A stretch of DNA of 64,000 bases from Tubulanus polymorphus. Taxonomy: Eukaryota; Animalia; Nemertea. The DNA is taken from contig NC_134031.1 in assembly GCF_964204645.1 (NCBI RefSeq), forward strand, positions 13,379,807-13,443,806. The letters are read 5' to 3'. Below the pieces are notes generated by a model. That model had not been told where the DNA came from, did no database searches, and saw only the letters and a list, made by a program, of their open reading frames with translations. The translations under genes were made by a program, and so were the position numbers. Shown here one piece after another: positions 14,144 to 62,896 of the stretch. The number at the start of each line of letters is the position of its first letter. The first letter of the stretch is position 1.

Positions 14144-14175
14144 AATTTTAACTTTAATAAAAATTTATATAATAA

Positions 14176-16674: not shown

Positions 16675-16680
16675 CTTATT

Positions 16681-19709: not shown

Positions 19710-20031
19710 GATATTGAAATAATGTTTAAAATATATCTATCTATCTATTCTATAATAGCTCGTTAATTACTCGTTACTTTTATATTGAATAATCTATCAA
19801 TTTATATGTTATTCATATATATAAATATTTTAAGAGTAATAGGGGTTTAGTTGGTTCAGGTTAAAGGTTGAATGGTCGAGTTCATTAAAAACAAATATTA
19901 AAAGCAATTTAAAACTATAATATATTTTCATAGCCGTGTGTATTTTAGTTAAATAATAGAATAATTATTATCATTTGAATATATTTGATTATATGAATTT
20001 GTGTATTGTAAATGAATCAATTGGTCGCGGA
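19710..20031. repeat. Mav-1 right TIR, ending at the apex of the fold-back
   Basis: Reverse complement of the inner arm of the left TIR; stops at AATTGGTCGCGGA. Confidence 0.9.
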
Positions 20032-24714: not shown

Positions 24715-27453
24715 TCAATCACGAGTTTGAATGATTAATAAAAAAAAAATTAAAATAATGCTGCCTAGAACCTCGATTTTCAGGTAGTCCATACATAGTA
24801 ACTCAAGAGGTTCACTTGAGAGGATTGACTCGAGAGGTGCACGGGGATCTCTGGCCTTCTGCACAACACATCTTCTACAACTCCCCAGATATCTTTCCAC
24901 ATCTGTAAACATTCCTGGCCAAAGAAAACGCCTTCCATGTCTTATCTCGACCAGCGTGTCCAAGTGCATCGTGGGTCCAATGTAGAATATTACCACTCTC
25001 CTCCACCGGTACCAGCACTTGAGTAACTCCGAAGCCATCCACAGTTTTCCTTCTCACAAGCAAACCTTCCTCAATAATGAGCGACGGAAAATATTTCCAG
25101 TATCTTTGTTCGGTGCGATCCATTGGACGGAATGGTTTTTTCTCGACGATGAGTCGTTTGAGTTTCGTAATCACCGGATCCTGGTCCTGTAGTTCAGCTA
25201 GCCTGAGTTTAGGGAGCTCACCGAAAACGTCCGTAACACTTTCTTCGGTGACGTTCAAAGGAACTGTGGCTGTATGCGTAGATAAAGCCATGGCTACAAT
25301 TACCTCATGGTTTATCTTCCGACTCAAAGCATCTGCATCTCCCATGGATTTCCCAGGCGTATAATTTAACTCCAAGTCATACGCCGATAACGCCTGTAAC
25401 CAACGATGCCCTACTGCGTCTAAATTTGCGGTTCTCAAAACGTAGGTGAGTGGGTTGTTGTCTGTTTCAACTACGCAACGCTGCCCATACAGATAGTCAT
25501 GGAACACGTCAGATACTGCCCATTTCAGCGCAAGAAATTCCAAATTCGTGCTGGGGTATCGACTCTCAGATGGTTTCACGGACCGACTTGCGTAAGTGAT
25601 CACTCTTCGTTGGCCCGCCTGCTCCTGGTACAATACAGCTCCCAGAGTCCTCTGCGTCGGTACGCAAAATGAAAGGAAGATTATAATCAGCAAACCCGAG
25701 GACTGGCGGTTTTGCATAGAAGACTTTTCAACCGCTCGAACGAGGACTGTTCTACCTCAGACCACCGGGGTAACGGGGCCCTAGACTGCTTCCGATCTAT
25801 CACTGCCACTCCTTTCAGTAGGTCAGTGAAAGGCTTTGCCACAACCGAAAAATTCTTCATAAACCGTCGGTAAAATCCTGCAAAGCCAAGAAAAGCTCTC
25901 AGCTCTGATACGGTCTCAGGTGGCTTCCAATCCCGGACGGTTGCTATCTTAGCAGGGTCGGCCTCAATGCCTCGCTTGGATATGCGGTGCCCAAGGTAAG
26001 GTACCTCGTCCTGTAAAAAAAACACACTTTCTCAGTTTAGCTTTCAACCCGGCCTTCTCTAGACGCTTGAATACTTCCTCCAGACGTTCCATATGCTGTT
26101 AAGCACCTTTGGAAAATACAATTACATCATCAATATAAACTAGACAGGTTTTCAAATTTAAATCTCCGAGGGTCCTTTCCATTAGTCGCTGAAAAGATGC
26201 CGGGGCCCCTGTTAAGCCAAACATCATCTTGTTGAATTCGAAGAAACCGAATCCCGGTCCGACATTGAACGCTGTCTTGTGGCGATCTCGGTCAGCCATT
26301 TTCAACTGCCAGTATCCAGACTTGAGATCGATCACACTAAAACGAACACATTCGGTCAAATTATTCAAAACCTCGTCAATCCTGGGCAGACTATAACGGT
26401 CGGGGACAGTTTTCCGATTCAAATCCCGGTAGTCAACGCAGAACCTTAATTCCCCGTTCTTCTTCCGTACTAACACAACGGGACTGGAATAGGGACTGCT
26501 GGATGAACGGATTACTCCGGCATCCAACATCGTTCGTAGGTGCTGGCGTACTTCCTCCACCATCCCAGGAGGAACACGACGGTACCGAAGGTTTACTGGT
26601 TCTTCATCAGTAAGATGGATGGTGTGCTTGGCCAGTCTCGCCGTACCCAAGTCCAGGTCGTTTGCGGCGAAAACATGCTTCCATTTTAAAAGCAATTCCC
26701 GGAGCATTTCCTTCTCTTCCTCTGTTTTTGCTCCCGCCAAGTTGACACCCGTTATAAACTCTTCGTCAGACACCCATGAATGTTTTCCAGATTCCACTTC
26801 GACCTTCAAATCCTCTTCAGAGTCCGAGTTCTCCACTTCGGTCACCGGAACCATTCCACAAATCACTGCTCTATGAGGAATAGTGATATCCCGCTCGCTA
26901 CTGTTCCTAAGTCGCACCGAAATCCTGCAACATTTGACTGACGGTACTTCGGTAACAGACGGTATGATACTTAACCTGCCAGGAACGTTAACTACGCTTC
27001 CATCTACCATCATCAGACCACCACGACAAGCAGTTCGGACTTGCCCATGCACAGTAACCTCCGAATTAGCGTGGACGCATAAAGTTTGCGTAGTTCGGGA
27101 CGAGTGCGGCTTCCATTGCTGGCTGGGTAACAAACGGTGGAGTTTTGAGCCGATGTAAGACATTGGTTCCAACCAAAACGGGTACTTCTCGGTGATAAAC
27201 TGTTGACGGTATAACTAGAGCCAAAATATCCAAATCATCACCCTCACATTTTAGATTCACCCGAGTAAACCCCTTAGTCGATAACACCTTTCCACTTACC
27301 GTGTGCACCTGAAATTTGGGTTCGATGTCGGATAAAGGATACACCTCACCATCTGGAAGAGTTTGTAGGAAGTCTTCCGAGATGGTTGAGACCATTGAAC
27401 CTGTGTCGATCAGAGCTCTACATTCACGACCGTTTATTTGAGTGCTAACCTCG
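24715..27453 (-). pseudogene. pol: Gypsy A pol (protease, RT, RNase H, truncated integrase)
   Basis: ALIDTGSMVSTI; LRFCVDYRDLN, VYIDDVIVFS; LEFLALKWAV, TDNNPL; integrase H2C2 region then a break (rve core missing). Confidence 0.92.
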
Positions 27454-28483
27454 TTAGGCCATCCAATTAACTCCGATAGGTTGAGGTGCTGTCCTCCTTT
27501 TCCGCCCGTCTCCTGCCTCCTGATCCGAGCGGTTCCTCGTTTCCCGGCAATGAGCCTTCCGAGCCTGCCTGACTAGTTGACGAAACAAATACCCTGGTTC
27601 TTTATATGTTCTCGTCGACATCTTAACTTGCATATCTTGTAACCCTCGCCAAAACTGTACCTTTAGTGTCTCGTCATTTATATAGGTTGGTCCATGTCCC
27701 GCAGCTTTCACTTGCGCTGCTATCTCCTCGATTCTTGTGGACCAATCCGCTATCGTTTCCTCGTCTCCTTGACTCACCGAGTGAAATCTTATCATCAAAT
27801 CCTCCGCCGTTTGCACCTCTCTGTATTTGAGTTCCATCTGATCAAGAACATCCGTTGCCGTAACTTCATTTTCCTCATCATACAGATTGATTAACACTCG
27901 TAACGCAGTTCCCCTTTATGATGCCCGAATTATCCTCATCCGAGTGGCATCACTGAGTGCTTCGTCATGAACAGGTGCCTTCACTTCCTGGCGCCATTGG
28001 GCGTAGGATATCTCTCCTTTGCTCTCCGTTCCACTAAACATTCCGACCCTTGGTGCTTGCACCGACACATTCACCCTAGGTTCAAATTGGGGTTGTGAGA
28101 GTGCTGGTGGCCTCAATGGCGGACCAGAATACGATTCACCGAGGCTTGTTTCTTTCTTGGGTTTCATCACCGAAGCTGTCAACTTGTCAACCAGTTTACT
28201 CTGAGTCCCTGGTGGTAGGTTTGAGAATGATCTCACCATTTGGTCCAGATCCTCTTCCGCCTGATATATTTGACGCAAGAATCGCTCCTGGGACGAATCG
28301 ATATTCTGCACTCGCTCGAGAACATGCATCTGGAGAATCAAAGATAAGAAAAACCCCATCCGAATTCTGGCTAGAGGTTCTAATTTCCCCACAAGGCTGA
28401 AAGTATTCCAGACAAAATCCAACAGGATTAGTTAACCCTTGAATACCCCCAATAAAAACCGCTCGTTCCCACAAGGAGGGCAT
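27454..28483 (-). pseudogene. gag: Gypsy A gag (PNMA-like), frameshifted
   Basis: MFSGTESKGEISYAQWRQEV and major-homology-like QGDEETIADWSTRIE, upstream of the protease. Confidence 0.8.
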
Positions 28484-30681: not shown

Positions 30682-31260
30682 AGTAATAGGGGTTTAGTTG
30701 TTCTATACCAAAGGTCGAACGGTCGAGCCCATTAAAAAATAAATATTAAAAGTAATTTAAAACTATAATATATTTTCATAGCCGTGTGCATTTTATATTA
30801 TAACTAAATATTTATTCTAAGATATTAATAATTTAAATTTTAAATGCATATTGTATTAAATCAATTGGTCGCTCCGTTTCGCTACCGCTCCACTCCGCGA
30901 CCAATTGATTTATTTATAATACACAAATTCATATAATCAAATATATTTTAATAATTATAATTATTCTATCATTCAACTGAAATACACACGGCTATGAAAA
31001 TATATTATAGTTTTAAATTACTTTTGATATTTATTTTTCATGAACTCGACCATTCAACCTTTAATCTAGAACAACTAAACCCCTATTATTCATATATATG
31101 AATAACATTTAAATTGAAAGATTATTCAATATAAAAGTTTGAGCTCTTATAGAATAGATATATAGATATATTTTAAACATTATTTCAATATTCATATTTG
31201 TATGAGTTAGATTTTTAAACATTAAAAGTGTTAGTAAAGTGTGATTGAAATAATACATAT
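30682..31260. repeat. Mav-2 TIR containing the complete ~410-bp fold-back (30682-31090)
   Basis: AGTAATAGGGGTTTAGTTGTTCTA ... TAGAACAACTAAACCCCTATTATT. Confidence 0.92.
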
Positions 31261-32463
31261 ATACATGATATAATACATAGCTGTTCATACTAGAACATGA
31301 TTCTATTTGAGCCTATATACATTTCATGTAATGAACTATTGAATAAATCTATAAATTCACAGCTGTTACAGCTGTGACTATGACGCCGAGACATATGAGA
31401 CATAATATTGCAAACGCGTAGAACATTCTAGAAGGTGTACCGGAACTAGATGACGTGGCATAATCGACGACGTGTTCATTTCGAAATCGCACCGGAACTG
31501 AATAGACGATGTAACATAACGCTTAGGATATTCTCTCTCGAAACGCAATTAGGAGTTTAAAGTTTACAATTCTAAATCTAAATGTAAGTACTGTTTTTTG
31601 TAGTTATTAGGGCTATTAAATATGAAACCTTTAGATATATTTAAGTGTATTTAGATAACTAAAGTTACCGCTAATATCTTTTAGATTAATAAAACGTCAT
31701 ACGGATCAAGAAGCGATAGAGAAACTCAAGATACTATTTCTGACTGAGGAATCAACAGCAATGGATATCAAACCAATAGAAACTGGCGTAGAACCACAAG
31801 AATCACAAAAGATCAACGAAGAAACTATATAAGAATTTCAAAAACATTAAGACTCCAATGATTAAGTTTAACATTTGTTGTTGTAGTTAAATATTTACCA
31901 GCAATTGAAAGATGTTTGTAATTATAGATTTTATATATAGAAATCAAATGATGTATTGGAAGAAACGACTGAACAACTTGTATAATGTATTGTGTAAATC
32001 TGATTGGTGAATTTTTATGTTCAGTCGTTTCTATTATGATTAGCGCATGCGCATTAAGCAAAAGCGCGCCTGTATGCGCGGTTTTGCCGATTGCGCATGC
32101 GTTTTGATATTTTATGTCGGTTGTTTCTATTTACAAAATGAATATATAATTATGATTAACACATGTGGATTAAGCAAAACCGGACATCAATGGCCGCATG
32201 TGACGCATGTAACGCATGTGTTGTTTCTATTTTACAGAATTTATAGAATGAATATATAATTATGGATAACGCATGCGCATTAAGCAAAAGCGCGCCTGTA
32301 TGTCCGCATGTGACGCGGGTATTGTAACTGGTATGATTTAGATATCAAGGAACTGAAACGACTTATCAAAAGCAACGAGGAATGAAAAAGGATGACGTTG
32401 GTCGAAGAAATGGAAGAGGGTTCTAAAATATAAACCAATTTAGTAAAAAAATATGTATAATAA

Positions 32464-33117
32464 ATGGCGCCAGAACAACCACAAAGTATTAATATTACAA
32501 ATAACACTGGTGTTATAGATAAATACTACAAGAAGTGTTCTAAGTGTGAATTAGATAAATTAGCTTTAACAGAATTTAGTAAGCGTAAGATTAGCAAAGA
32601 TGGTTTTCAATATTGCTGTACAACTTGTACTAAACTATATACCAAACAATATCGAGAAGATAATATAGAACATTATAATTATTATATGGCAGAATATATG
32701 AGAGGAAGATATCAAACAGATCTTAATTCTAGATTGAAACAATGTTTAAGATCTAGATTAACACAATTATTCAACAAAGAAACGCATTCAGAAACACTAT
32801 CTAATTTATTGGGTTGTTCAGATGAATTTTTCATATCATGGATAATATATCAATTCGACGATAAAATGAATATAGATAATTATGGTGAATACTTTCATAT
32901 TGATCACGTGTTGCCGATTTCTAAATTTGATATGAGTGATGATTATAATAAGAAGCTAATATGGAGCTGGAGAAATTTAAGACCTTTAGAAAAGAAGGAA
33001 AACATAATTAAATCTAACAAACTAGATATGAAATTATATTTAGATCAACTGGATAAAGCAAAGACATTTGTTGAATTATGGAACTCAACACATAATGAAA
33101 AATACGTTGGAGCTTAA
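32464..33117 (+). CDS. Zn-ribbon + HNH/EndoVII-like endonuclease (intact, 217 aa)
   Basis: CSKC...CCTTC; HIDHVLPISKF...WSWRNLRPLEKKENIIKSNK. Confidence 0.8.
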   Translation: MAPEQPQSINITNNTGVIDKYYKKCSKCELDKLALTEFSKRKISKDGFQYCCTTCTKLYTKQYREDNIEHYNYYMAEYMRGRYQTDLNSRLKQCLRSRLTQLFNKETHSETLSNLLGCSDEFFISWIIYQFDDKMNIDNYGEYFHIDHVLPISKFDMSDDYNKKLIWSWRNLRPLEKKENIIKSNKLDMKLYLDQLDKAKTFVELWNSTHNEKYVGA

Positions 33118-34246
33118 ACGCTTAGAAAACTGGTTACTCTCGATCCATGTCAAACTACCTATATGCAATTGTATTAGCTCTTTGCATCTGTCGCACGTTA
33201 TATTCAGTTGAATGGGGTGTACCTCATTTGAATATTGGTCGAATGTGCTATTTCAGTTGAAAAGGATTAATCAATTACATTACAAAGGAACATCAGACAG
33301 TGTTTAGCTAGTGAATAACTGGCAGTTATAAGCGCGCAGCACATAAGCATAGGAACGTATAGGATATTCTCTCTATAAACACAATTTTAGGAGTTTACAG
33401 TTATAAATGTAAGTACTGTTTTTGTTGTTATTAAGCGCCGGGAAACGTTAAACATGTAAAACTTACCCTGGTAAGATGCGCCACAAATGGCCATGTTTAA
33501 GTGCTGTAATTAATATTTTACAACTACAACTTCAAGTTAGTTTTATTCTACGCTAGATATTTATCTTTTAGATAACAAAATGAAGACCATTGAATCAAGA
33601 AAGTGAAGATGGATGGATGTGGAATCAGAAATTATGGATATTTCAACTCATGAGATTGTAGCAGTTTAGCCTTACTGTATAGGCTTTCAATGCATTACGT
33701 TTGCCGGAATTTCAATTGCGTCATTAAGCTGTTGTTAATGTCGCAGTGACAGATGTTCTATTATACTTTATTGATTCCTGCATTCCACGCATACCTTACC
33801 GCTCGGCTGCCGAGCGGCTTGGAATGTGGAAATCGATAATGATTGTAGAATAAAATATATGTGTTTATGAAATAGTATTTCCACCAGTCGTTTCTTTGAA
33901 TTTATTTTCAGTTTTAGGATTTATTATTGAGAATCCGAAATGAATTATCTGGACAGTTATAATTACTGCTCCTAATAGATAAACAATAGTAGTGAGATAT
34001 TAAATCCTAATTTAAATAAAATATAATAAAAAAAACAATAACTTCAACTAGCTAGTGAATTCTATTATATTTTTAATATTTTCTTTTCAAAAAGAGAATA
34101 CTTTATATTTTGAAAAGATTCAAATAGAAATTCTTTAAATTCAAATAGCTAGTATCAGTAGTCAATACTAGAATTCTTTAACTTTAACTATCTAGTATCA
34201 TTTTATAATACTTATAATATTTTTCTTGCTTTTTTCTCCTATATAA

Positions 34247-34849
34247 ATGTCAAAGAAATCTAATAAGAATAATACCAACATTGAAAAAACATTAGATGAT
34301 TTAGGCATTAGTGATAATAAGGATATTCCAATCAAAATTGAAAATAATATTAATTGTAATATTGATTATGAATACTATTTATATTGTAAGGACCATCTTG
34401 AATTATTAATTGCTGGAGGGAAATCTAAGGATTTCTTGGGAAAAATAATAACTTTTCAAGAATTAGATGCTATGAAACCCGATAAAGTAATAAAGTATTT
34501 TAAGATTTATGAAGAAGGTAGATTAGCTAGAATAAACGACTCTATAAGTGATGGTATTATAAAATGTTACTCTAAGTTATGTAACCAGTTAATACCAATT
34601 GATGATGAAAATAAATTATATAGTGATTTGAAAAATGACTACTTAGTTATGACTGAATTACAAAAATGGGTCGGATATGCTTCATTTCAATTAGGATCGG
34701 TTATGACATTAATTTCTACTGGCGTCATAACATTTTCGAATATCAAGCCTATGGAATATAAATCAGGTGAGAACGAAACAGATGTACAACAACCAAACGG
34801 CGAAACAGAAAATGAATCAGAACAAAAATTAACTAAAATAAATCAGTGA
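34247..34849 (+). CDS. Conserved Maverick hypothetical protein (200 aa)
   Basis: Orthologue of 17045-17653. Confidence 0.75.
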   Translation: MSKKSNKNNTNIEKTLDDLGISDNKDIPIKIENNINCNIDYEYYLYCKDHLELLIAGGKSKDFLGKIITFQELDAMKPDKVIKYFKIYEEGRLARINDSISDGIIKCYSKLCNQLIPIDDENKLYSDLKNDYLVMTELQKWVGYASFQLGSVMTLISTGVITFSNIKPMEYKSGENETDVQQPNGETENESEQKLTKINQ

Positions 34850-34853
34850 TGGA

Positions 34854-35529
34854 AGTAGTATACAAAATAGCGGTTCCTGCGCAGCCCGACCCCGGTTCTG
34901 GCGCAGCCCATCCTTACCCCGGTATACCGTGTACCCTCTCAAAGCTTTATCTCCACCTAAATACCCTAAGAAGACAACCCCTGTGGACCGCGGTTCTGGC
35001 GCAGCCCGACCCCGGTTCTGGCGCAGCCCATCCTTACCCCGGTATACCGTGTACCCCCTCAATGCTTTATCTCCACCTAAATACCCTAAGAAGACAACCC
35101 CTGTGGACCGCGGTTCTGGCGCAGCCCGACCCCGGTTCTGGCGCAGCCCATCCTTACCCCGGTATACCGTGTACCCCCTCAATGCTTTTTCTCCACCTAA
35201 ATACCCTAAGAAGACAACCCCTGTGGACCATGGAAAACACGCCAAGGGGCCGGCAAACCCCCTCCGGCCCCTATAAACCAACCGCTATAATGCACCTACA
35301 ACAAAGTGTTATTTACATAGATATTTACAGTATATACAAGTATGTGAAACGCTCTGAACTGGAATTCACCTCTAAGCTGACGCTATCAGCGGTGCGCTGC
35401 GACCTGATTGTCACTGATTGCGAAATAGCCTAGAAAAGTTCTATGCTGACGCAGAAGCCGGCAAACAACCGAGACATCGGCAGGCAACCAGAGTCATGTC
35501 CCTTGGACATGGCCAGGCCCGGCCAACAC
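34854..35529. repeat. Mav-3 left TIR with three 120-bp tandem units (34871-35229)
   Basis: Exact 120-bp periodicity; inverted copy at 46872-47427. Confidence 0.95.
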
Positions 35530-35601
35530 ACCAGGTGAAGCGCGTCTCGTGAAAGTCCTGGTTCACTCACCAAGGTGGATATAGATTCTGCGTGGTCAGA
35601 A

Positions 35602-37854
35602 ATGGACACAGATCTGATCTATCAAAACCTGGTGAGTGACATTAAAGCCGGGTTGCCGATAACCCTGAAACAGCGGAAATGTGAATTACGGAAGACGCTG
35701 TTCAAGAATGAAGCCGGCTCGAAAGAATTCTTCGGCCTAGTGAGAAAAATCAGCAAACTCAACAAGGCAAATCGGTTCTTTACAACAGCCAAGCAGATTA
35801 TTACGGGTTCCCCGAGCAATCAAACGCAGGAGGATGCATTTCCGACTAAACGACGGGTGAAGGAATACTTCACGGACCTGTATTCTAGTAAGCAGACCGG
35901 TCCTATTCCTAAGCCACCCTTCAAGAACGTTGCGTTCCCGTTCGATATGTCACCGATAACCGCAGCTGAAATCGAAAAAGCCTTGAAGAGCAGCAACCCA
36001 AAGTCCGCTCCAGGTCCAGACAGGATCAAATACGGACATCTCCGTCAGCACACCCATCGACTCGCGCGATTTTACAACGACATACTAGATACGGGAAGGC
36101 CACCTTCGAAAAACTCGGCGTGGTGCACCAGTATTGTGACCCTTCTATTCAAGAAAGGGGACCGCCGCGATCCTGCTAACTATCGTCCGATTGCGGTTAC
36201 AAGCGTGATCTCGAGGCTCCTTCATCGGATAATGGCGAAACGCATAGAACGCCACGTCATTAGGAACGGATTCATCGACACTGCCGTACAAAAAGGATTC
36301 GTGTCGGGCCTTCACGGGACACTGGAACATTCTGAATTATTAGAGACTAAAATCATCGAAGCCCAAAAAAAACTGAAAATGACTCATTTGTGACTTTATT
36401 TGACCTTAAAAATGCATTCGGTTCAATCGAACGCGAACTGGTAAGTGAAACGCTATCTGTCATTGGAATTCCCGCAAGCTGGTATAGGTACCTAACGGCG
36501 CTGTATTCTCAAATTTCTAGCAAATTCAAAGGTCCTTGGGGCACGGTCGATATCCCCTACAAACGAGGGGTCTTTCAGGGTTGCCCTCTTAGCCCCCTAA
36601 TTTTCATCCTGTGCGTAGAACCCCTCGTTAGAATACTGTCAACCGGGACATCCCTAGCCTATGTAGATGACACAACGCTGGAAACAAAATCGGCAAAAGC
36701 CCACTTATATATAACGTACGCGTTTAACAAAAAAGCCAAGGAAATGAACCTTGAACTCAGGCCGGACAAATGCGTTTCCCTGAGCGTTAGACGCGGACGA
36801 ATTGAGCCATTCAAAAACGAGATAGAGGGCAAAGACACCGCGACCCTCACCGATTTGGACAGAATAACGTATCTAGGCAAAATTTTCAGTCCCAAGGGAC
36901 AGGAAGGGGTGGGTGAAATTCTCCTCACAAAATTCAGGCAACGACTCACAAACATAGATAACGCCGATATACAAAGCGGGACAAAGGTTCATATCGCTAT
37001 AGACTATATGCTGAGAGCTGATTACCATGACCTCATGATCAACGACCTGTCTGATAATTGCTTGCAGTTAATCGACAGTGTCTTTGTAAACACGCTACAT
37101 AAATGGGGTCACCGTCGATTGCTCACTTTTCAAGTACCGTCCACCGTATACCACTGGTTTCATGCATTGAAGGTCTACTTCCTTATCACTTCTCCCGACG
37201 AAAAAATCGTTGAAGTGGCCATCTCGAAATTCGAAAACAGCCATTATCTCGATCTCGCTTTCGAATCCCTCAACCATAAAAACTCGAAGGCGTTCATAAA
37301 ACGCCACTACTTAGGAATATTCGCGCACGCCACCCCCGACCCAGAAAAATTACCCTGTAGCTCTAAGGCGTTTGACGTATTCGACATCTACCCGGAGCAT
37401 ATACCCGAAGTGTATACAGACGGCTCGTGCCTGAGAAACGGTGCAGACGAGGCTCGTGCGGGCTACGGCGTCTACTGGGGGACCAGACAGTCCCTTAAAC
37501 ACCTGTGGCGTCTTTTATCCACCTGCCAACAACAAGGGTGAATTAACTGCGGTCGTCGTGGCTCTCAATCAGGCCATCCAGCTTGGTATTAACTCCTTGA
37601 AAATTTTCACCGACTCGAAATACGTTATAAACGGTATCACTGATTGGATCAAGACGTGGAAAGCCAGGTGCTGGAAAAACGTCAAAAACCGCGATCTCTG
37701 GACACAACTGGATGGTCTGAATAACCGAGTCTGCGTATCTTTCAAATACTTCAGGGGTCACCAGGGGGTACACGGGAATGAGATGGCGGACCAACTAGCT
37801 AAATCGGGAGCAGCTCTCAATGGTAGTAATCCGGGGGTGACGTGTCTCTGTTAA
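35602..37854 (+). CDS. Non-LTR-type reverse transcriptase fused to RNase H1-like domain (two frameshifts, both in homopolymer runs)
   Basis: RT motifs KSAPGPDRI, LLFKKGD..DPANYRPIA, QKGF..G..GTLEH, FDLKNAFGSI, GVFQGCPLSPLIF, YVDD, YLG. RNase H motifs YTDGSC, NNKGEL, FTDSKY, GHQG..GNEMADQLA. Shifts at the A9 run (~36365) and G5 run (~37477). Confidence 0.9.
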
Positions 37855-37863
37855 ACTCTAACG

Positions 37864-38519
37864 TTAACCTCCATCCAGCTTTTTTATGATGGAAGCCCTG
37901 GCCTGCTCCCTGCCCTGCCTGATGAGGTCCTTTTTTGTAGCCTCGTCGATCGTGATTGACCCGTGTTTTTTACGAGCCTGTGACTTGATATCCTGCTTCA
38001 AAGTCTGATTTCCAGAGTTGATTCGAGTTCAAGCGGATTCTAGCCGAACAGAGTTCCTCTGTTCGGCTAGAATCAGCTTGAACTCGTCATCCGAAACAAC
38101 TCCATCACTTATTGCCCTCGATACAAGATCTGACACGGTGCTTAGTTTGGAAGGGGCTAACACTCGGATTTCGTCGTGCTTTTTAGCCTTGATCAGAAGC
38201 TTCCGACCGACTATCTTCCCAGACACGCCTAAGACGCCTAGGACGGTCGCAACGGGGATCGTGATTATGTTTGTAAGCACGCCAGCGGCTCCCGTAGCCG
38301 CGACTGCTATGCTAGCCGTCACGAAAGCCGCGTCAAATCCATCTATGGTGTTTACCGCCCTATTATACTTCTTGTAGAGCGCAGCGCGGGATTGTACCTC
38401 GGCCTCTAAAATTTTCTGGACTTCGCATATTATTTTTGCAGTCGGAAGTTCGACGCATCTAGGGTTGGAGCACTAGGCTCAGTTGGAACCATTGGGTAAA
38501 GTTTAGTGTCGCTATCCAT
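37864..38519 (-). pseudogene. Mav-3 coiled-coil/two-TM protein, disrupted
   Basis: MDSDTKLYP...LYKKYNRAVN...hydrophobic hairpin...KAKKHDEIRVLA.SKLSTVSDLVSRAISDG.VSDDEFKLIL. Confidence 0.7.
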
Positions 38520-38527
38520 GCTATATA

Positions 38528-38979
38528 CTATGCGGGAAAATGTCGAGCTCGATGAGGAGTGAAGCTATCGTAGCTATTGCTCGAGTAGCGGGCGATCTCT
38601 ACGACTTGAAATTGATGACGTCGCCCTCGGCCAATTCGACCGGTGGAGAGAACGTTTTGACCGCGGCTTGGAAGACTCCTTTACCTTGCGGTTTGATCGA
38701 GCCCTGTAAAAGCCGAGCCTCTTTCGTGATTTCTCCTTTTTCCACCCTGTTGATGGTCAACACTACTGTGGTATTAGTTGTCAAGTCGCCACCGGAGAGG
38801 CCCATTTTTAGCACTCTCCCCGGACACATCATCGTGTAGCCCGCGTACTGGGATCGCGACCCATCACCGTACGAAAATTCGTAAGAGCCCTCACCAAGGG
38901 GTCCTTTTTCCTCGGCCCAAACGGTTATCACAGGTTTTGTGGTTGACTGTGTTTTCCCTAATCCCCTGTACAAGTTCAT
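38528..38979 (-). CDS. Mav-3 beta-rich protein (possible virion fibre/decoration domain)
   Basis: 126-aa ORF 38599-38979 (ITVWAEEKGPL..GSYEFSYGDG) with a probably premature stop. Function is inference. Confidence 0.45.
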
Positions 38980-38986
38980 CTCTATT

Positions 38987-39430
38987 CTAATGCGAGCAAA
39001 AATCTTTACCTTCGACGTTTGGGTAATATCCTTCCGGGACTCCCAACAGATCGGTGATGGAGCCGCTGAAGAGCGCTCGGTACGGTTTTTTGACGTTGAG
39101 TTCGATGCGCCCCCTCGCCTCCACGTAGGCTATGTTAATGAAGTTCGGTTTGTGACCGTTTCGAGTAATGACTCGCTGAATTTCGTCGTTCAAACTCTCA
39201 ACCGTGTAAAGTCCATTCCTGATAATCAAGTTGAACACTTTTTGTTGGTGCTCGTCCACCCTTTCTCCGGTCATGTAGCGAAACCTGTGGTTGTTCAGTT
39301 TGTCGGAAACGTTGAAGTAAGCCAGAGGAATGACAGCCCGTCTTAAGGCCACAGTTTTGAAGCCACCCGTGTCGAGATGCGTTTTTAGACGCACGGTCGG
39401 ATCCTTACCGTAACAGTGGATGACTAACAT
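38987..39430 (-). pseudogene. Mav-3 penton, N-terminal part only
   Basis: VALRRAVIPLAYFNVSDKLNNHRFRY...IRNGLYTVESLNDEI resembles the penton N-terminus, including Mav-1 NSFYNVSDK...PGLYNLESLAQEI. Confidence 0.65.
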
Positions 39431-39441
39431 CCTTCCTATAT

Positions 39442-40574
39442 CTAACGCGAGAATTTCTTGCTCAGGACTTGGAAAGACAGACCGACTGCAGCGATAAACA
39501 ACAACACCAAGTGCTCGGCCACGAATCCGACTGCTTCTCCGGCTTTCCTCAACAGGAAGCTAACCACCGTTCCGATCATTCCCGGCAACGCGGCAGCTCC
39601 TTTCCCTGCGAGATATTTAAGAAACGCCGAGAACTTTTTCAGAGCTTTTCGAATCCTGGACTTGGGTTCTTTTCCCGGTCCCCAACCAGCGGACTGGGTG
39701 TTACTACGCTTTTGAGCCCGTTCGCGATTGCGAGCCCGACGCTCGTGATAGTCATAACGACGGCCGTGACAACGCTCACCAACGTAATCCCTTCCTGTTT
39801 GAACAACTCCCAGAACTTTACGCCGAGGGGCCGATTATCTTCGTTCTTCAGAAGCCTCTTCAACCTCTCGATCTGAGAAGTCTCCCCCTGCCGTAGAGCC
39901 TCGTAGGTCCGCCTGTATATTGCTTCCTGAGCTTCGAACCTTTCTACTTCGTCGTCCCAGTATCGGATGTCTTGTTCGGACACCGCGTAATCGCGCTCTT
40001 TCTGAGCCTTTTCTAGTTCTCGTTGGGCCCATTCCACGTTTACAGCTGCTGACTTAATTTTGCTGGACGTAGACACCAAAGTAGTAGCTACCCCCCGGAG
40101 TTCACGTCTGTCTTCTGGTCTCAGCGGAGCCCTGTCGTCATTGACGATGTCCTCTATTTCCTGCTGCAAACTCAACTCGTTATCCACCGACAAGCGATCC
40201 ACGATAGATGGTTCCAACGGGTCTCGTTCCATTCTCACCGGTTTGTCCGGGCCCAGAGCATGGAAAAACTCAGAGCCCCCTTTCGCTTTCGAGATGGTAC
40301 TATGCGCGAGTACTTGACCGCTCCTACCGGTAAGTTTCACCCGAACTGGATCACCGTTCAGTTCCGTCTGAAAGAACCAGGTATCGTCTTGTTTTCGTAG
40401 TTGCAGGCGCATCAGGGCTCGCTCCATGTCGTCCAGGTTACCGCCGAATTTACCGAGCAGCGAGTCGATGATGCCGTCTTTTTCTCCCAGGTTTTCCATG
40501 GGAATGAGCTCGTCTACGGCGTCATCTTGAGGCTCCACGTCCCAGTCTATCGGATCAACGTCGAATTCTGCCAT
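39442..40574 (-). pseudogene. Mav-3 coiled-coil/membrane protein, one frameshift
   Basis: Homologue of Mav-1 10134-12875. Confidence 0.75.
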
Positions 40575-40715
40575 CGTCTATAATTAAGCCAGGAATTTCT
40601 GCAAGAATCGGAAACATCGAACTCGTCCATTTGTTTTTGGATCCACTCCTCGTGCGCTTCCCACAAAAACCAGTTTTGTGCCAAAGCAAATTTCGACACC
40701 GGTTCTTTCCCGAAC

Positions 40716-41057
40716 TTACGTTCCGGCTTTCCATGTAGCTCGAGGATTCGGTTTAAGAGGAATCCGTACGAAAGGAAGTTTTTCCGACGAGGGAACTTTT
40801 CGAGGAAGAGTTGATAGACGTCGGCGAAGCAATATCTGATCGTCGCGCATATAGGAATGGTAATCCTTGGAGATGGTTGCTAAAGAAACCGCAACTGTGA
40901 GTTTCATAGCTTCGGAAAGGTCGGACTTGGAGGGTTCACCCACATCAAAGCGTAGCATTTTCTTCCCGAGCATCGCGTACCCTACGGTCAGTCCGCTTAG
41001 AACGGCCGAGTGATAAAGTACGTTTGCGATTGTTCGATAGTCTGGATTCGTTGCCAT
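40716..41057 (-). CDS. Mav-3 small hydrophobic protein; C-terminus apparently fused to unrelated sequence
   Basis: First ~66 aa are homologous to 7663-7884; similarity stops at ~40860, a possible deletion junction. Confidence 0.6.
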   Translation of the reverse strand: MATNPDYRTIANVLYHSAVLSGLTVGYAMLGKKMLRFDVGEPSKSDLSEAMKLTVAVSLATISKDYHSYMRDDQILLRRRLSTLPRKVPSSEKLPFVRIPLKPNPRATWKAGT

Positions 41058-41082
41058 CGTGCTATATCTATCACCAGAAAAT

Positions 41083-41406
41083 TTAGGTCATCTCCACAAG
41101 GCGACAATTCAAAGGTTCCGGTGTTGGTTCCGTGTTTTCTTCGGGTTTCGGTGTTTGGTTTAGCCCCATTCTCTGATAGTATAGAGCTCCGAGGCCCACT
41201 AACAACCCGCCTATCGCGATCCACATTTGCAGGCGTTTTGACTGGGCTCTGTTTTCGTCGTCGGAACCGACAATCGGGGCAGCCGTTTTCTTCGAGGCTC
41301 GCTGCTGCCTACTAATTTCGGCAAGCTTTTTGCCCCATGCGACTCGACCAGGGGACTTTTGTTTATGCGGGTTAGTCGTCACTTGTTCCACTTGTTCAAG
41401 TTCCAT
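41083..41406 (-). CDS. Mav-3 small basic single-TM protein
   Basis: Homologue of 16681-17052. Confidence 0.6.
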   Translation of the reverse strand: MELEQVEQVTTNPHKQKSPGRVAWGKKLAEISRQQRASKKTAAPIVGSDDENRAQSKRLQMWIAIGGLLVGLGALYYQRMGLNQTPKPEENTEPTPEPLNCRLVEMT

Positions 41407-41457
41407 CCCTATATGCAAGAGAGGAAAATACGACTTACGGGAAAGTGGACAAGTTAC

Positions 41458-41924
41458 TTATCGGCAAGTGGACAAGTCACTTTCCTCAGAATCTGCCATA
41501 TTCTTCCCGGTGATTACCGCCACGTTCGCGATTGCGCGTATGGGAGTCTTCAGATTCCTACCCAGATGGCCGAGCTGGTTTTTCATCTCGGCGGTGATAA
41601 CAAAGTTTTCAGTCAACTCCTTGTTTGCGTCTACGTTAGGTCTGAACCACTTGCAGAGCTTGGAATAACCGTAGAGTATGCTGTTGATCAGACTGTCGGA
41701 AACCGCGGCGGAATAACGGTTTTCGTACTCCGTCCACACCCGTTCGAGCGCTTTCGAGTTCATCTTCTTGAGTTGACCTTCGGATTTCTTGATACCTATT
41801 TTTGCGAGCAACCCGGTCTGAGAAAGCCCAACAAGTAGCTGCCTGCGCCCTCCGACTCGTCGTCTTCGGGTGATTCTACATCCAACCCAATGTCACTCAG
41901 TAATTCGTCGTAGACTTCGTCCAT
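41458..41924 (-). pseudogene. Mav-3 conserved hypothetical protein, frameshifted
   Basis: Homologue of 17045-17653 in the same gene-pair order. Confidence 0.6.
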
Positions 41925-42068
41925 GTTCGCTATATGTTAGTCGTCCAAAATTTAGAATACCCCGTAGGCGAATGGATACTCGAGGCGCATGACGAGACGT
42001 TCGCGTTAGGTACAACAGTAATCGTAGCGTCTGGTGTGCATTTTCTCAAGAAGTAGGTATAGGGAAAG

Positions 42069-43106
42069 ATGGAAGAGGTTTGGACGAAACACGGCTACCC
42101 GTCGGCCCTGAAACTGTACAGAATTATGAAAAAGCGTGATCCCGGTGTTACCTTCGTAGAAGTTGACAAGTTCGTATCGGCGAAGAAGACTTATCAGCTA
42201 CATAAAAAGATGCGCAGAGAAATTCAAGGACATATCGTAGCCTACTGCGAGAACTGCATTTGGTTCGCGGACCTACTGGATATGTCGAACTACGGTCGAC
42301 GAAACAAGGGATACAAGTGGATTCTACTTTGCGTTGACGTATTCACTCGAAAGGCCTACGCGCAGCCGTTGAAAAAGAAGACCAAGGAAGCCGTCAAAGA
42401 GGGATTCGAGGCAATCATGGAAGGTCTCGGCGAGGAGAAAGTGACTCTGTTAGTCACCGATTCCGGATCGGAGTTTCTAAACAAACCGATGCAAGAACTG
42501 TTTAGGACGCTGGGAATTGAACACAGGACTGTTGAAGTTGGCGACCACAAAGCGCTTGGCATCATCGACAGGCTGTCTAGGACGATAAAGGAGATCATTT
42601 TCAAGGATTTCACCGAAAGAGAAACCGTCGTGTGGTACGATCGTTTGCAAGATTACGTAGATGGCTACAACGCTACACCTCACTGGGGTATTTCAGATAT
42701 GACTCCCGAAGAGGCCGGAGAATCCCGAAATGAAGAAAGGTTACTGTTCGAAAATATCGGAAAATCCGAACCCCCTGAGAGCCCGTTCAAGCCAGGCGAC
42801 AGCGTAAGGAAAAAGCTGAAAAGACCCGTGTTCAAAAAGGGTTACAAACAGATATGGGGCCAAACAGTGCACTCCCTCGCGTCTGTGGAAGGCTTAAATG
42901 GGGTCCTCGATAATGGAGAATCAGTTAGGTTGGACGATCTGCAACTAGTGATACCTCCAGCTGAAGAGAAGACGACGGTAGACGCTGTGTTCGTAGCCGA
43001 CAAAGAGCACAAGATAGAGCAGACTATCAAGCACAAGGAGGGTTTGTCACCCGAAGCGTTAATGCCCTCGAATAGCAGGTACAGCCTGCGATCTAAAGCT
43101 CGTTGA
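42069..43106 (+). CDS. Mav-3 rve integrase (intact 345-aa ORF, no chromodomain)
   Basis: WFADLLDM, CVDVFTRKAYA, VTDSGSEF, GIIDRLSRTIKE, YNATPH. Confidence 0.92.
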   Translation: MEEVWTKHGYPSALKLYRIMKKRDPGVTFVEVDKFVSAKKTYQLHKKMRREIQGHIVAYCENCIWFADLLDMSNYGRRNKGYKWILLCVDVFTRKAYAQPLKKKTKEAVKEGFEAIMEGLGEEKVTLLVTDSGSEFLNKPMQELFRTLGIEHRTVEVGDHKALGIIDRLSRTIKEIIFKDFTERETVVWYDRLQDYVDGYNATPHWGISDMTPEEAGESRNEERLLFENIGKSEPPESPFKPGDSVRKKLKRPVFKKGYKQIWGQTVHSLASVEGLNGVLDNGESVRLDDLQLVIPPAEEKTTVDAVFVADKEHKIEQTIKHKEGLSPEALMPSNSRYSLRSKAR

Positions 43107-46100
43107 GCAATTCCTCGACGTACTCGTCCAACGGAGTCCTGGCATTTTTGTGGCCATAAGCGAGCGTAGCGATACCATCGTCGGCGATCCACCTCTTACT
43201 GTCGAAGGGACTGAGACTCTGCTTTGTCATACGCAGGCCGTACATTTTGTGACCCTCGCTTCTCAGCATATTCATTCTGTGCTGGAAGACCTTCTTTTGG
43301 AACAGACATTCCTTGTATTGCTGGTGGCGGATCTGTTTCTTCACCACGTTCTTTTTCACACCCTTGTCCTTCTTGATGTTAGTCTGATCGGCTATTAAGA
43401 TGCTGTACATCTTCGGTCTGAGCCCGACGTACTCCTGGATGGGTGTACCCGCGCACTCGTCTTTCATCTTACAGAGAACCTTCTTGTTGACGTTGCTATG
43501 CAGCGGGTGATTTCCCGGGTAATCGCTAGTATCGTAAAGGTCGTTGTTCGAATCCATGTCTTCGTAGATGTCTTCCGTCTCAATCTCTAGCAGGAGACTG
43601 TCGGTGTCAGTGTACAGCAATCGAGTACGATCGCCGTATACCTGTTTCATGTGGTTATAGTAGAAGTCGTACATCAGCAGCTTGCTGAGATCGAGCACGG
43701 ACATCCCTACGTAAACGGGCCTATTCAGGTACAGATTAGTCTTGTACATGTGCATCGCGGCAAGATCGTCGTCAAACACCTTGGACCTGGCGAAGTTCGG
43801 CTTGGCTATCAACTTCCTCAACCTGTCTTACTCGTTTGATCTGACAAGCTTCACGTCTACCCTGCGTCTAAGATTTCCCATGGTCTTGCCGAATACGGAG
43901 TTATTCATCAGCTTGTACAGGTCCTTCTCGAAGTCGCTGGTTGCTAGCTTTCTTAGTTTTGTGTTCAGTCTTATATACGGCTCCATCCACGGCGATTGGT
44001 CGAATTCGAAGCCGCGATGAATCTTTGTGAGCTTCAGTCCTAGCTCCAGGTACAACTTAAGGTCCCTGTAATGAACGACGTATCTCTCCTTGTTGCGGAG
44101 ATTAGGCACCAGTTTTTCCGTTTCGGTCGAACCCCCCAGTCTTCCTAACAGATCTTGCTGGTACTGCGACATCCAAGCTTCTTGAACCTTAAGCCTTTCC
44201 GGTGCCAGTGGGTACTCGTTGTGCGAGTCGTGCAGCCCCCTGGGGTATTCCAAGTCTACCTCTAGAATGTAACCTTTCTCTGCGTCATCTGGATGTCCCG
44301 ATACATTGAGTTCTTGCGGCCTTTCAACCCACTCGAATCCGCCCGTTGGCAGGTGTTGCGACATAGCCCAGCCATATAAGTTATTCGCGTCAAGGTACAT
44401 TATGTGTGTCGTCGGCTTCTTTGGATCGTGACCGGGAACCAAAGGATTGTTGGCCCTGCAGTGGCGTTTGCTGACCATGGAAATGCCACCTCGCAGACCC
44501 TTTTCGATGAATAAGAACTGGTCGTAGTCCATTAAGAGCTCTAGTTTAACCTCTGTTTTCTTAAGTAGAGCGTCCAGCTAAGACCCGGGCTGGTGTAATA
44601 CTGTGCGGGATCTAGGCCGTACTGCTTCACGCAAGTGGACCTGAAATTCTCGAATACATCGGCGAGAAGAACCGTATCGGTCCTCAGATAGAGGTCGTGG
44701 TAGTCACCCATAGTACGGCACTGAAACGTGGCCCATAACTTTTGCGCGTGGGCATAGTCTTGATCGCTGATTCCCGCCTCTGATAGCTTGCTGTAGAAGG
44801 CTCCTTTTGACGGAAGCTGGGTATCCTGGAATTTCTCCCAACTGTCCATGTACTCGTATGGGTATACGCCCTTTCTCAGTAACAGTATAGACAATTCAAT
44901 GTTTTGGTTTTATCGCCCACGACAATTCATTACTAGTTTTTCGGGTGCAGGTTCGGCCGCAGCTGTCAGCGTAAAGCTCCCCTTAGCGGCTGACGCAACC
45001 AGTCTGTCAAATGGGGCCAGCAAGAACTGCACAGAATCGATGAACCGCAAATTACCGAGACTGAATGAGATGTACTTCTCCATGTTATTCGGGATGCACG
45101 TTATCTTTCCTTCAGTCCGACCGATTGCCTGCATGATGAGATGAGAGTCGTAACCGCGGAGGTTGTGAAACACGACCGGCATAGGCGTGTATTTCGCGGA
45201 CAGTCGCAACTTGAGGTTGCACTCGTTGTGGGCTGGGCCCCGGTAGTCACCCGTTATGTGATCGCGATCACTGACCCGATCCTCATAGAGTGGTTTGTCA
45301 CATACGTAGCAATTTTCCGCTTCCTCGAATGACGTTTGCTCCTCCCGAGTAGTTACCATAGGCGCGGGATGGGCGAGCACGCCCTTGATTTTCTCCTTTT
45401 CCCCTTGGAGGTGCTGAAGGAATACCGCCGCAGCGTCTTGGCCTCTATAAAGGACGGGTGGTTCGTGTTTACCGTCGCTTCTCACTACCACGTACGAGAA
45501 CCCGCACGCCTCGTGAAGTTGAGTCTTTTCGCTACCTTTCTGGTTCGGGTTCCTTCCGGGGCCCTCGAATTTGGTTGTAATGGCTTCGAAGTCGGCATAG
45601 ATGACGAACGGAATCTTGAGCTGCTTGTGATGATTGGTGAACCGCAGCACTTTGTCCTCCTCCGAGGGCATACTGGTACGCCTCGGACGTCCGTTGACTC
45701 CTCGACAATCTGACCTGTGCCTCTCCAGGAGATCTTCTCTGGTGAAACAATGAAGGCACCGCTCGCAGAAGTGTTTCTTCCCTTCAAACTTACTCTGGGT
45801 GAACAACAGGCGATTGAGGTCTTTGATCCATGTGTAATGCTGTTTCTCACCGCTCTCTACGAGTAGCAAGTTAATTCTAGGAATGGGGGCCGGGCCATCG
45901 CTGATATGCAGTGGGTACACGCCTTTGTCATACCCGAACACGTTGATTGCCAGTCCGTTTTGTCGTTCGACTATAGGAATCTGACTCAATGGTGTTGGTT
46001 AATCAATGCCTGTAAAGTCAAGCTGGTCCCAGTGATTCGCATACTTCGATGGCCTCTGGGGGTCTCTCTCTACGGGGTATTTCGAGGCCAGTATTGACCA

Positions 46101-46783
46101 CTTAAGGCAGTGATCATCTCTATTTTTGACATTTACGACGGCGTGTCTTCTCTTGACTGCGACGGGGAGGTCGATATAAGAACTGCCTCTCAACGGTTGA
46201 TATCTGGCGATATTCAGGAATAGTTCGACTACCCTCTCTACAGCCCATCCGGAACCTTCTCTCATATAATTCTCAATACTTTGTAAAACCCTAGCTTCAG
46301 CTTTACTCAACTCCTCATTTATGTTAGCCGCCTTCGATAGAACGTATTGCTTCGACCAGAAGGGCGGCTCGACGTACGCATAGGTGCCGTCGTTCTTCTC
46401 CTCAACGAAACAAACAGAGCAATGGAGAATTTTACACCCTTAAGGTCAATGATCTCCTCGACTAACTTCTCCCTTACATTGTTCCGCTGAATATCGACGG
46501 ATCAGTCACATCGGTGGCTGGTCTCAAAACCAAGGCCCTCAGATAATTTTGGATAGCAAACGGGGCCCTATGAAACTGGCTCCGGTAGAATCTCATCCCA
46601 AATCGGATCATCGTCCGGTATAATGTTTTCTACCTTGTACTTGGGTTTTCTGGGGGCGGGTTTTGGCTTTCTCGGAGCAGGCGTCGGTGTGCGGGTCAAC
46701 TGGTTGATGGCATCGGCATATGTTGCGACAGTAATCTGCCCGTCTCGAAGTAAATCGGTCAGACTTTTTATCGCGCTGTCCAT
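43093..46783 (-). pseudogene. polB: Mav-3 protein-primed DNA polymerase B, fragmented
   Basis: NVKNRDDHCLKWSI, YADFEA, DRDHITGDYRGPAHNECNL, FHNLRGYDSH, YLDANNLYGWAM, KLMNNSVFGKT, YTDTDS. Confidence 0.95.
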
Positions 46784-46871
46784 TTTGCTTTCGCTATGAG
46801 AAATGTGAGAAATGTATGTCTCTAAATGGAAATTTTTGGGGGGCCCCTCGTCAGAAGTCGGCACACGCCGA

Positions 46872-47427
46872 GTGTTGGCCGGGCCTGGCCATGTCCAAGG
46901 GACATGACTCTGGCTGATAGCGTCAGCTTAGAGGTGAAATCCAGGTCAGAGCGTTTCACATACTTGTATATACTGTAAATATCTATGTAAATAACACTTT
47001 GTTGTAGGTGCATTATAGCGGTTGGTTTATAGGGGCCGGAGGGGGTTTGCCGGCCCCTTGGCGTGTTTTCCATGGTCCACAGGGGTTGTCTTCTTAGGGT
47101 ATTTAGGAGGAGAAAAAGCTTTGAGGGGGTACACGGTATATTGGGGTAAGGATGGGCTGCGCCAGAACCGGGGTCGGGCTGCGCCAGAACCGCGGTCCAC
47201 AGGGGTTGTCTTCTTAGGGTATTTAGGTGGAGATAAAGCTTTGAGAGGGTACACGGTATACCGGGGTAAGGATAGGCTGCGCCAGAACCGCGGTTCACAG
47301 GGGTTGTCTTCTTAGGGTATTTAGGTGGAGATAAAGCTTTGAGAGGGTACACGGTATACCGGGGTAAGGATGGGCTGCGCCAGAACCGGGGTCGGGCTGC
47401 ACCAGAACCGCTATTTTGTATACTACT
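46872..47427. repeat. Mav-3 right TIR
   Basis: Reverse complement of 34854-35529, lacking the 98-bp block 35391-35488 and part of one 120-bp unit. Confidence 0.95.
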
Positions 47428-47825
47428 GATGGAGTTAAGAAAAAGGTTAGATCTGAAAAACAAATTAAATGGGCAAGAGAATTAGGTAAAAGATCTTCAG
47501 AATTAAAAAAGCTAAGAAAAAGAAATTAACTGATATAAATGAATCACAGAAATTATCTGATATTGATTCAAATAATAATCCATCTGATTCTTCTAATAGT
47601 GGAAGAAATAATTACTTATATATTACAATTGGGTTAATCACAATTATTATATTATCCGGTGTAATATATAAATCAAAATTCAAATCTGATGATAAAGATG
47701 ATTCCAATGATAATCGGAAACTTAATTATCCGTGTACAGACAATAAACCTATTATACCAGAAAATAAGTCAAATCATAAAGCCATTGAAACTAAATCTAA
47801 ATTATTATTAATGGATTAAAATAAG

Positions 47826-62838: not shown

Positions 62839-62896
<58 letters not shown>

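What the first reader, a model, noticed from the sequence alone, without database searches (positions are those of the whole stretch)
35530..37866. A Maverick/Polinton carrying an apparently resident reverse transcriptase-RNase H gene
Seen: inside TSD-bounded Mav-3, starting ~70 bp after the left TIR, is a ~750-codon RT-RNase H reading frame. It has all RT motifs (YVDD) and all four RNase H acidic residues. It has no APE domain upstream and no CCHC/restriction-like endonuclease downstream. It also lacks a 3' UTR, poly(A) or simple-repeat tail and TSD. Its stop (37854) lies 9 bp from the convergent stop of a Maverick gene (37864), the same tight packing as the integrase/pPolB pair. Its base composition resembles Mav-3 rather than the AT-rich surroundings. 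An ATATAG like the one before other Mav-3 genes lies 17 nt upstream of its ATG. The only two lesions fall in homopolymer runs. Knowledge: Polintons replicate with protein-primed PolB and RT is not part of their standard gene set. The IDTAVQKGF..G..G..EH / DLKNAFGS signature looks like RLE-type (Hero/R2/NeSL-like) RTs, which normally end in an endonuclease rather than an RNase H1-like domain. Inference: this is a captured, endonuclease-less RT-RH in an element that also encodes a retroviral-type integrase. That would be a DNA-virus/retroelement hybrid able to make cDNA (cargo capture, an RNA-intermediate route, or terminal maintenance).
Basis: partly seen in the sequence, partly recalled or inferred. 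Interest (0 to 1): 0.92.

Follow-up and report, generated by a model that had tools for sequence, protein, structure and literature searches.

The report
Maverick with resident reverse transcriptase gene
A virus-like DNA transposon family carries, as a regular gene, a reverse transcriptase that has lost its DNA-cutting domain and gained an RNase H; the same gene sits beside the same neighbour in a distant relative, so it was likely domesticated long ago, probably to act on the element's free DNA ends.

Summary
Confirmed and strengthened. A 12.6-kb Maverick (34854-47427; AGTAGT-tipped TIRs, 6-bp TSD, pPolB, integrase) carries an RT-RNase H gene at 35602-37854, broken at two places in this copy. 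It is not a one-off truncated LINE. In reads from another study the RT is as deep as pPolB (60 vs 60), the TIR tip has mixed flanks, and most reads do not share the two breaks. A 733-aa homologue (P0001) aligns end to end with the same start and end. A metagenome contig (L001, about 50% aa identity, fourfold sites near saturation) has the same RT-RH followed by the same convergent gene. The RT lies in a well-supported endonuclease-less clade (100/98) nested among CCHC/RLE-bearing non-LTR elements; the RNase H is eukaryotic H1-like with all catalytic residues. Printed cases I found are recent or nested retrotransposon cargo in Polintons. Residency about 0.85. Function is inferred only: most likely RT primed on free 3' ends of the linear element (repair or end maintenance), about 0.4; homing passenger and RNA-destroying roles are rivals. 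L001 is too short to prove it is a Maverick.

The parts
34848..34853 (.). left target-site duplication GATGGA
   Evidence: empty-site reads
34854..35531 (+). left terminal inverted repeat, with 3 x 120-bp tandem units (34870-35229); 35391-35489 has no partner at this copy's right end but is at about 2x depth in reads
35579..35584 (+). ATATAG motif like that before other Mav-3 genes
35602..36393 (+). RT-RH gene piece 1: conserved N-terminus and RT motifs 0-2; broken near 36365
36351..37541 (+). RT-RH gene piece 2: RT motifs 3-7 (YVDD), thumb, helical linker, first RNase H Asp; broken near 37477
37435..37854 (+). RT-RH gene piece 3: RNase H1-like domain (E, D, H, D, basic protrusion), stop at 37852-37854
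37864..38520 (-). convergent small hydrophobic-helix gene; its homologue follows RT-RH in L001 too; broken in this copy
38599..41892 (-). row of small Maverick genes; four have homologues in the capsid- and ATPase-encoding AT-rich Maverick of this window; VLTF3-like fragment at 40550-40879
42069..43106 (+). rve integrase
   Evidence: PF00665 E 5e-12
43093..46439 (-). protein-primed PolB with endonuclease-VII-like insert, in at least five pieces
46870..47427 (-). right terminal inverted repeat
47428..47433 (.). right target-site duplication GATGGA

Best explanation
This Maverick family carries a non-LTR-type reverse transcriptase without an endonuclease, fused to an RNase H1-like domain, as a regular gene next to its left terminal repeat, and the enzyme likely acts on the free DNA ends of the element's linear form. 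Shown: family-wide presence, conserved start, end and neighbour in distant homologues, RLE-element ancestry, loss of the CCHC/RLE, intact catalytic motifs. Inferred history: an RLE-type retrotransposon RT lost its knuckle and nuclease, giving an RT-only lineage; one branch gained a cellular-type RNase H1 at the exact point where the RT-only proteins end; it has been inherited with the element under purifying selection. Inferred mechanism: it would be transcribed from the TIR as an early gene, mirroring pPolB at the other end. Lacking a nuclease, it can only prime on 3'-OH ends that already exist (ends of the excised or replicating linear genome, breaks, integrase-processed ends). It would extend or bridge them on RNA or DNA templates, the RNase H would clear the RNA strand, and pPolB would finish the duplex. 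That would repair or maintain termini and, as a by-product, capture intronless cargo. Residency about 0.85; this mechanism about 0.4.
For: Depth in run X5 (other study): RT 59.8 (5 bins), small genes 65.8 (10), pPolB 59.5 (8, satellite bin left out); inner TIR 141 at 35434, about 2x. Contigs X2#9 and X3#16 run from the RT into the next gene at depth 179 and 34 against 197 and 29 for RT contigs. TIR tip: 53 loose-end reads with agreement 0.48 versus 0.76-0.98 for empty-site ends, i.e. mixed flanks. Reads differ from this copy at both breaks, 52 of 67 and 23 of 43 in X5, and in contigs of all three other runs. P0001, 733 aa, colinear at 39/40/47% with matching first residues and end. L001: same RT-RH (48-57%) and same convergent gene (42%, E 3e-8; stop gap 65 bp; no poly(A)); fourfold sites differ at 32 of 50 and 22 of 27. 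RT-core tree, 44 rows: 8 nuclease-less RTs form a 100/98 clade inside a 98/96 clade of CCHC-bearing elements (100). RT-only members end at EYPEE/EYPDDE where the linker-RNase H begins. Best solved RT matches are R2 proteins, best RNase H match human RNase H1.
Against: No activity or expression data. L001 is 2.1 kb and shows no pPolB, integrase or TIR; its link to Mavericks is the neighbour gene, whose likeness to the AT-rich Maverick's gene is weak (E 0.001 pairwise, HMM E 0.64, hhalign probability 1.4). Context of P0001 and of the six RT-only proteins is unknown. Short reads cannot tie the RT to particular TSDs; copy number was not measured; 160 loose-end rows and 132 joints were not shown. 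The three RT-RH proteins are not a supported clade by themselves (RT 38% of bootstrap trees, RNase H 40/43). The AT-rich Maverick in the same window thrives (about 750x) without an RT and also has subterminal repeats, so the RT is not needed for Maverick life. No structured RNA was found near the gene or in the TIR unit.
Confidence: 0.5

Rival explanations
1. Selfish homing passenger: the RT-RH copies its own mRNA into RT-less Mavericks at one subterminal site, priming on nicks made in trans by the pPolB endonuclease-VII-like insert or the integrase. Selection keeps it intact without benefit to the element.
For: RLE-type ancestry, a group rich in site-specific elements (PMC4640811 passages); fixed position; a nuclease-like insert is present in pPolB (PF02945 E 9e-4, below cut-off); Ngaro elements target virophages (PMC8547959 passages).
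Against: No 3' UTR, tail, TSD or structured RNA to be recognised; depth leaves little room for RT-less alleles; it shares the element's upstream motif and codon composition.
Confidence: 0.17
2. Effector against RNA or hybrids: RT plus RNase H copies and destroys host or competitor RNAs (for example silencing precursors), or chiefly removes R-loops during element transcription and replication.
For: RNase H is a complete cellular-type H1 domain with basic protrusion and catalytic His; TIR-proximal position fits early expression; the window is a nest of competing elements.
Against: RT-only relatives lack RNase H yet are conserved, so the RT function came first; no target evidence.
Confidence: 0.13
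3. The RT-RH belongs to an endonuclease-less RT lineage living mostly outside Mavericks (host gene, other virus, two-gene cassette) and was captured by this one family, which then amplified.
For: Context unknown for 7 of 9 clade members; L001 shows only two genes.
Against: L001 repeats the neighbour that here heads a co-oriented row of Maverick genes; depth shows no excess of RT over pPolB; Logan contigs of P0001 barely exceed the ORF (2359 bp for 2202 bp).
Confidence: 0.1
4. RNA-intermediate replication: the element or a derivative is transcribed, reverse-transcribed and inserted by the rve integrase.
For: RT, RNase H and a retroviral-type integrase in one element.
Against: TIRs and pPolB retained at equal depth; genes on both strands; no LTR or primer site seen; integrase region is at lower depth (39) than RT.
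Confidence: 0.06
5. One-off 5'-truncated LINE insertion carried passively.
For: Such cargo is known in Pieris polintons (10.1101/2025.02.07.637071 section 13); this copy is decaying (3 synonymous, 14 non-synonymous among 17 listed private differences).
Against: Conserved start and end in P0001, conserved neighbour in L001, no longer endonuclease-bearing form among 56 hits of 694-2000 aa, family-wide depth.
Confidence: 0.04

Closest known systems
Polinton/Maverick elements (adintoviruses)
   Same: TIRs, 6-bp TSD, pPolB, rve integrase, shared small genes with the capsid-encoding Maverick in the window (definition from 10.1101/2023.08.22.554363 passages).
   Different: Carries RT-RNase H; this copy shows no major capsid, ATPase or protease, though other copies have extra sequence at about 40860-40936 and 41999.
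Polintons with LINE or gypsy cargo in Pieris (Pannagram preprint 10.1101/2025.02.07.637071, section 13 read)
   Same: Retroelement RT inside a Polinton that went on amplifying.
   Different: There the cargo is 95% identical to an active host LINE and polB is lost; here the RT has no nuclease, has a fused RNase H, coexists with pPolB and is conserved in place at about 50% aa identity.
Ngaro in EMALE virophages (PMC8547959 passages) and nested retrotransposons in cryptophyte PLVs (PMC12220804 passages)
   Same: RT (and RNase H) found within Polinton-related elements.
   Different: Those are complete retrotransposons with their own repeats and recombinase or integrase, at varied sites and of different GC.
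RLE-type non-LTR retrotransposons (R2 group; HERO-like label recalled)
   Same: RT sequence and fold closest to R2 among solved structures; nested among CCHC-bearing elements including Branchiostoma ones.
   Different: No CCHC knuckle, no RLE, no UTR or tail; C-terminal RNase H1. The RLE elements with RNase H in PMC4640811 passages (oomycete Utopia) have an archaeal-type domain upstream of RT and keep the RLE.
LINE-like RT genes of large DNA viruses (MSV061 entomopoxvirus, lymphocystis virus, Bodo saltans virus, mimiviruses)
   Same: RT gene inside a dsDNA virus genome; same fold.
   Different: 17-20% identity only; large viruses, not Polintons; not this clade as far as tested.
Endonuclease-deficient Penelope elements at chromosome ends (PMC8557442, abstract start in listing)
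   Same: Functional analogy: an RT without nuclease restricted to existing DNA ends.
   Different: Unrelated RT class; autonomous retroelements, no RNase H fusion (recalled).

Membership tests
Polinton/Maverick | Terminal inverted repeats 100-1500 bp | tested here: met
Polinton/Maverick | 5-8 bp target-site duplication | tested here: met
   GATGGA both sides; empty-site reads
Polinton/Maverick | Protein-primed PolB | tested here: met
   PF03175 E 3e-11; homologous to the second Maverick's PolB; broken in this copy
Polinton/Maverick | rve integrase | tested here: met
   PF00665 E 5e-12
Polinton/Maverick | Capsid proteins, packaging ATPase, protease | tested here: inconclusive
   None found in this copy; other copies carry unseen extra sequence; single-sequence fold of 38990-39430 failed, pLDDT 35
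RLE-type non-LTR retrotransposon | RT of the R2-group clade | tested here: met
RLE-type non-LTR retrotransposon | CCHC knuckle and restriction-like endonuclease after the RT | tested here: not met
   absent in window, P0001, P0078
RLE-type non-LTR retrotransposon | 3' UTR or tail, TSD, variable 5' truncation | tested here: not met
   9-bp gap, no tail or TSD; same start as P0001; flat depth
HERO clade | Groups with reference HERO RTs | not testable with these tools
   No Repbase references on hand; nearest named relatives are Branchiostoma and Dysidea elements
APE-type LINEs with RNase H (I group, L1, Proto1) | N-terminal APE endonuclease and APE-clade RT | tested here: not met
   no upstream ORF; separated from APE rows at 99/95
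Cellular RNase H1/HI-type domain | D-E-D-H-D residues and basic protrusion; groups with eukaryotic H1 | tested here: met
   inside a 95/90 clade with named nematode RNase H1, donor unresolved
Active reverse transcriptase | Enzyme activity and expression | not testable with these tools
   motifs intact only

The most novel reading that the evidence does not exclude
A lineage of Polintons has domesticated a nuclease-less non-LTR reverse transcriptase (a whole unrecognised RT clade, with and without RNase H1) and uses reverse transcription in its own cycle, making it a dsDNA virus-like element with pPolB, integrase and a working RT-RNase H, and a built-in route for capturing spliced host genes.
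Probability: 0.35. Interest if true: 0.95.

Novelty: new variant of a known kind. Interest (0 to 1): 0.82.

Why it matters
Polintons are defined as DNA-only replicators and are known vectors of horizontal gene transfer, but how they pick up cargo is open. A conserved RT-RNase H gene offers a testable mechanism for cargo capture and end repair, adds a new class of stand-alone eukaryotic RT (RLE-derived, nuclease-less, compact at about 730 aa with its own RNase H), and supplies naturally intact homologues for enzymology.

Tried and rejected
No whole genome is held, so copies could not be counted or aligned. Viral-contig scans with P0001, the window RT, alignments A4, A7, A9, P0084 and the neighbour gene found no family member (one search gave 1 locus at 24%, not followed). 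The metagenome scan gave 72 loci; only L001 is a family member, and none of the other 71 matched a non-RT window ORF. No RNA holder listed. Rfam: 3 chance-level hits, no ribozyme; folds of the 5' region, TIR unit and 3' junctions z -1.5 to +0.05. Phage tblastn: RNase H only, 0 records cover 80%. Atlas: no usable hit for the neighbour gene; the P0001 request did not complete. Fold of a candidate minor capsid failed. Zinc-finger insert of P0255 versus a Maverick ORF: E 0.07, not counted. TIR tandem repeats as an RT product: rejected as evidence, since the RT-less Maverick has subterminal repeats too. First automatic tree selection dropped key rows and was replaced by hand-picked sets: 58 rows, then 44 after leaving out 14 partial, long-branch or near-duplicate rows. 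Earlier-findings look-ups by sequence and place were empty.

Full report
Observation. The element spans 34854-47427, starts AGTAGT at both ends and is flanked by GATGGA. It is inserted in an inverted copy of an AT-rich Maverick; reads of the empty site join the two flanks directly. It encodes an rve integrase and a fragmented pPolB, and shares these and four small genes with the AT-rich Maverick, which also has a capsid-like gene and an A32 ATPase. The RT-RNase H gene begins at 35602, about 70 bp inside the TIR, and ends at 37854, 9 bp from a convergent stop; it is broken near 36365 and 37477, both in homopolymer runs. RT and RNase H catalytic motifs are complete. There is no APE, CCHC, RLE, tail or TSD.

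Is it resident in the family? No genome was held, so I laid public data of the same species label. In raw reads from a different study (X5, about 12% of the run read) mean depth was 59.8 over the RT (5 bins), 65.8 over the small genes (10), 59.5 over pPolB (8, one satellite bin left out) and 39.3 over the integrase (3); the inner TIR was 141. Contig depth in X2 gave 201, 209, 196 and 95. Contigs run from the RT into the neighbour gene at family depth, and none of the loose ends shown lies at an RT boundary (160 rows not shown). At the TIR tip 53 reads carry loose flanks with agreement 0.48, against 0.76-0.98 for empty-site ends, which indicates several insertion sites. At the two breaks 52 of 67 and 23 of 43 reads differ from this copy, so the breaks are not family-wide. 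Of 17 listed positions where most reads differ from this copy, 14 are non-synonymous, as expected for decay after insertion (only the best-supported rows were listed). X1 and X3 are one sample, and X1-X3 one study that may be the assembly's source. Short reads cannot tie an RT to a given TSD, and copy number is unmeasured.

Is it conserved beyond the family? A search for longer relatives gave 56 hits; the best, P0001 (733 aa, RT + RNase H), aligns over all three pieces at 39, 40 and 47% and shares the first residues and the end. A full HMMER search added P0078, 49-51% identical to the window pieces. Its contig L001 (2116 bp) holds the same RT-RH followed convergently by a homologue of the window's neighbour gene (42%, E 3e-8; 65-bp gap, no poly(A)). 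Fourfold-degenerate sites differ at 32 of 50 and 22 of 27, near saturation, so protein and gene order have been kept by selection over a long time. L001 has a frame break of its own and is too short to show TIRs or pPolB; the neighbour gene's tie to Mavericks rests on its place in Mav-3 and a weak likeness to a gene of the AT-rich Maverick.

Origin. Among solved structures the RT is closest to R2 proteins (E 4e-20 versus 1.5e-13 for LINE-1; same order by fold) and the RNase H to human RNase H1. In an RT-core tree of 44 rows, three RT-RH and five RT-only proteins form a 100/98 clade nested in a 98/96 clade of CCHC-bearing elements (one search agrees with 58 rows). The RT-only proteins (620-686 aa for the four that look complete) stop at EYPEE-like residues where the RT-RH linker continues into RNase H. 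The RNase H falls among eukaryotic H1-like domains (95/90) with no resolved donor. The three RT-RH proteins are not themselves a supported clade. So this is not an RLE retrotransposon (defining features not met) but a descendant of one.

Mechanism (inferred). Non-LTR RTs prime on DNA 3' ends (established knowledge). With the nuclease gone, the primer must already exist, and a Maverick supplies such ends in its linear, excised or replicating form. The gene occupies the TIR-proximal slot opposite pPolB and has the element's TATAG motif. I therefore favour end repair or maintenance with RNase H clearing hybrids, with cargo capture as a by-product (about 0.4 given residency of about 0.85). Rivals are homing by trans nicks, an anti-RNA or R-loop role, capture from a non-Maverick lineage, an RNA replication route, and a one-off insertion. 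Against necessity: the RT-less Maverick in the same window is about ten times more abundant.

Literature. Eight full-text searches returned no description of a resident RT gene in Polintons. I read passages of PMC6431247, PMC4640811, PMC8547959, PMC12220804, PMC5678591, PMC11131425 (0 RT mentions), 10.1101/2024.03.25.586562 (RT genes in large DNA viruses), 10.1101/2023.08.22.554363, a term search of 10.64898/2026.10.13.758929 (0 RT mentions), and passages plus section 13 of 10.1101/2025.02.07.637071. These report recent or nested retrotransposon cargo, not a domesticated gene. LINE-like RTs of large DNA viruses match at 17-20% only. Repbase, most subscription journals and supplementary genome maps (for example of the adintovirus preprint) were not seen and could hold a prior annotation.

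Verdict. A real, apparently undescribed variant: a Maverick lineage with an old, conserved RT-RNase H gene from a nuclease-less RT clade. Interest 0.82; function untested.

Noticed in passing
window 41923-43074: Integrase region is at about 65% (X5) or 47% (X2) of the depth of RT and pPolB, with contig loose ends at 41999: many family copies have a different or missing integrase.
   Followed up: partly
window 40859-40936 and 41999: Contigs of other copies diverge here, so the window copy likely has internal deletions; the missing capsid and ATPase genes may lie in the unseen sequence.
   Followed up: no
P0082, P0084, P0254, P0255, P0080, P0153: RT-only proteins without nuclease or RNase H, sister to the RT-RH genes; context unknown; P0255 has a two-finger zinc-finger-like insert.
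   Followed up: partly
window 44886-44932: 47-bp insert in pPolB matching a very high-copy tandem satellite (depth above 5000).
   Followed up: no
window 38010-38087: 42 extra bases absent from other copies form a fold-back with adjacent sequence, like a template-switch product.
   Followed up: no
window about 1680-19800, 31100-34853 plus 47428-49419, 61550-64000: Several nested or inverted copies of an AT-rich, high-copy (about 750x) Maverick with capsid and ATPase genes; a 1-kb unit is triplicated at 10607-13081.
   Followed up: partly
window 20037-20933: Intronless ORF that looks like a peptide GPCR (recalled likeness, not searched), the only host-like gene seen.
   Followed up: no
window 24715-28431 and 55190-60102: Two gypsy-type LTR elements; the second has a chromodomain-like hit.
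   Followed up: partly
P0024: 1475-aa non-LTR protein with GIY-YIG, RT, RNase H and a CCHC/RLE-like end, an unusual domain mix.
   Followed up: no
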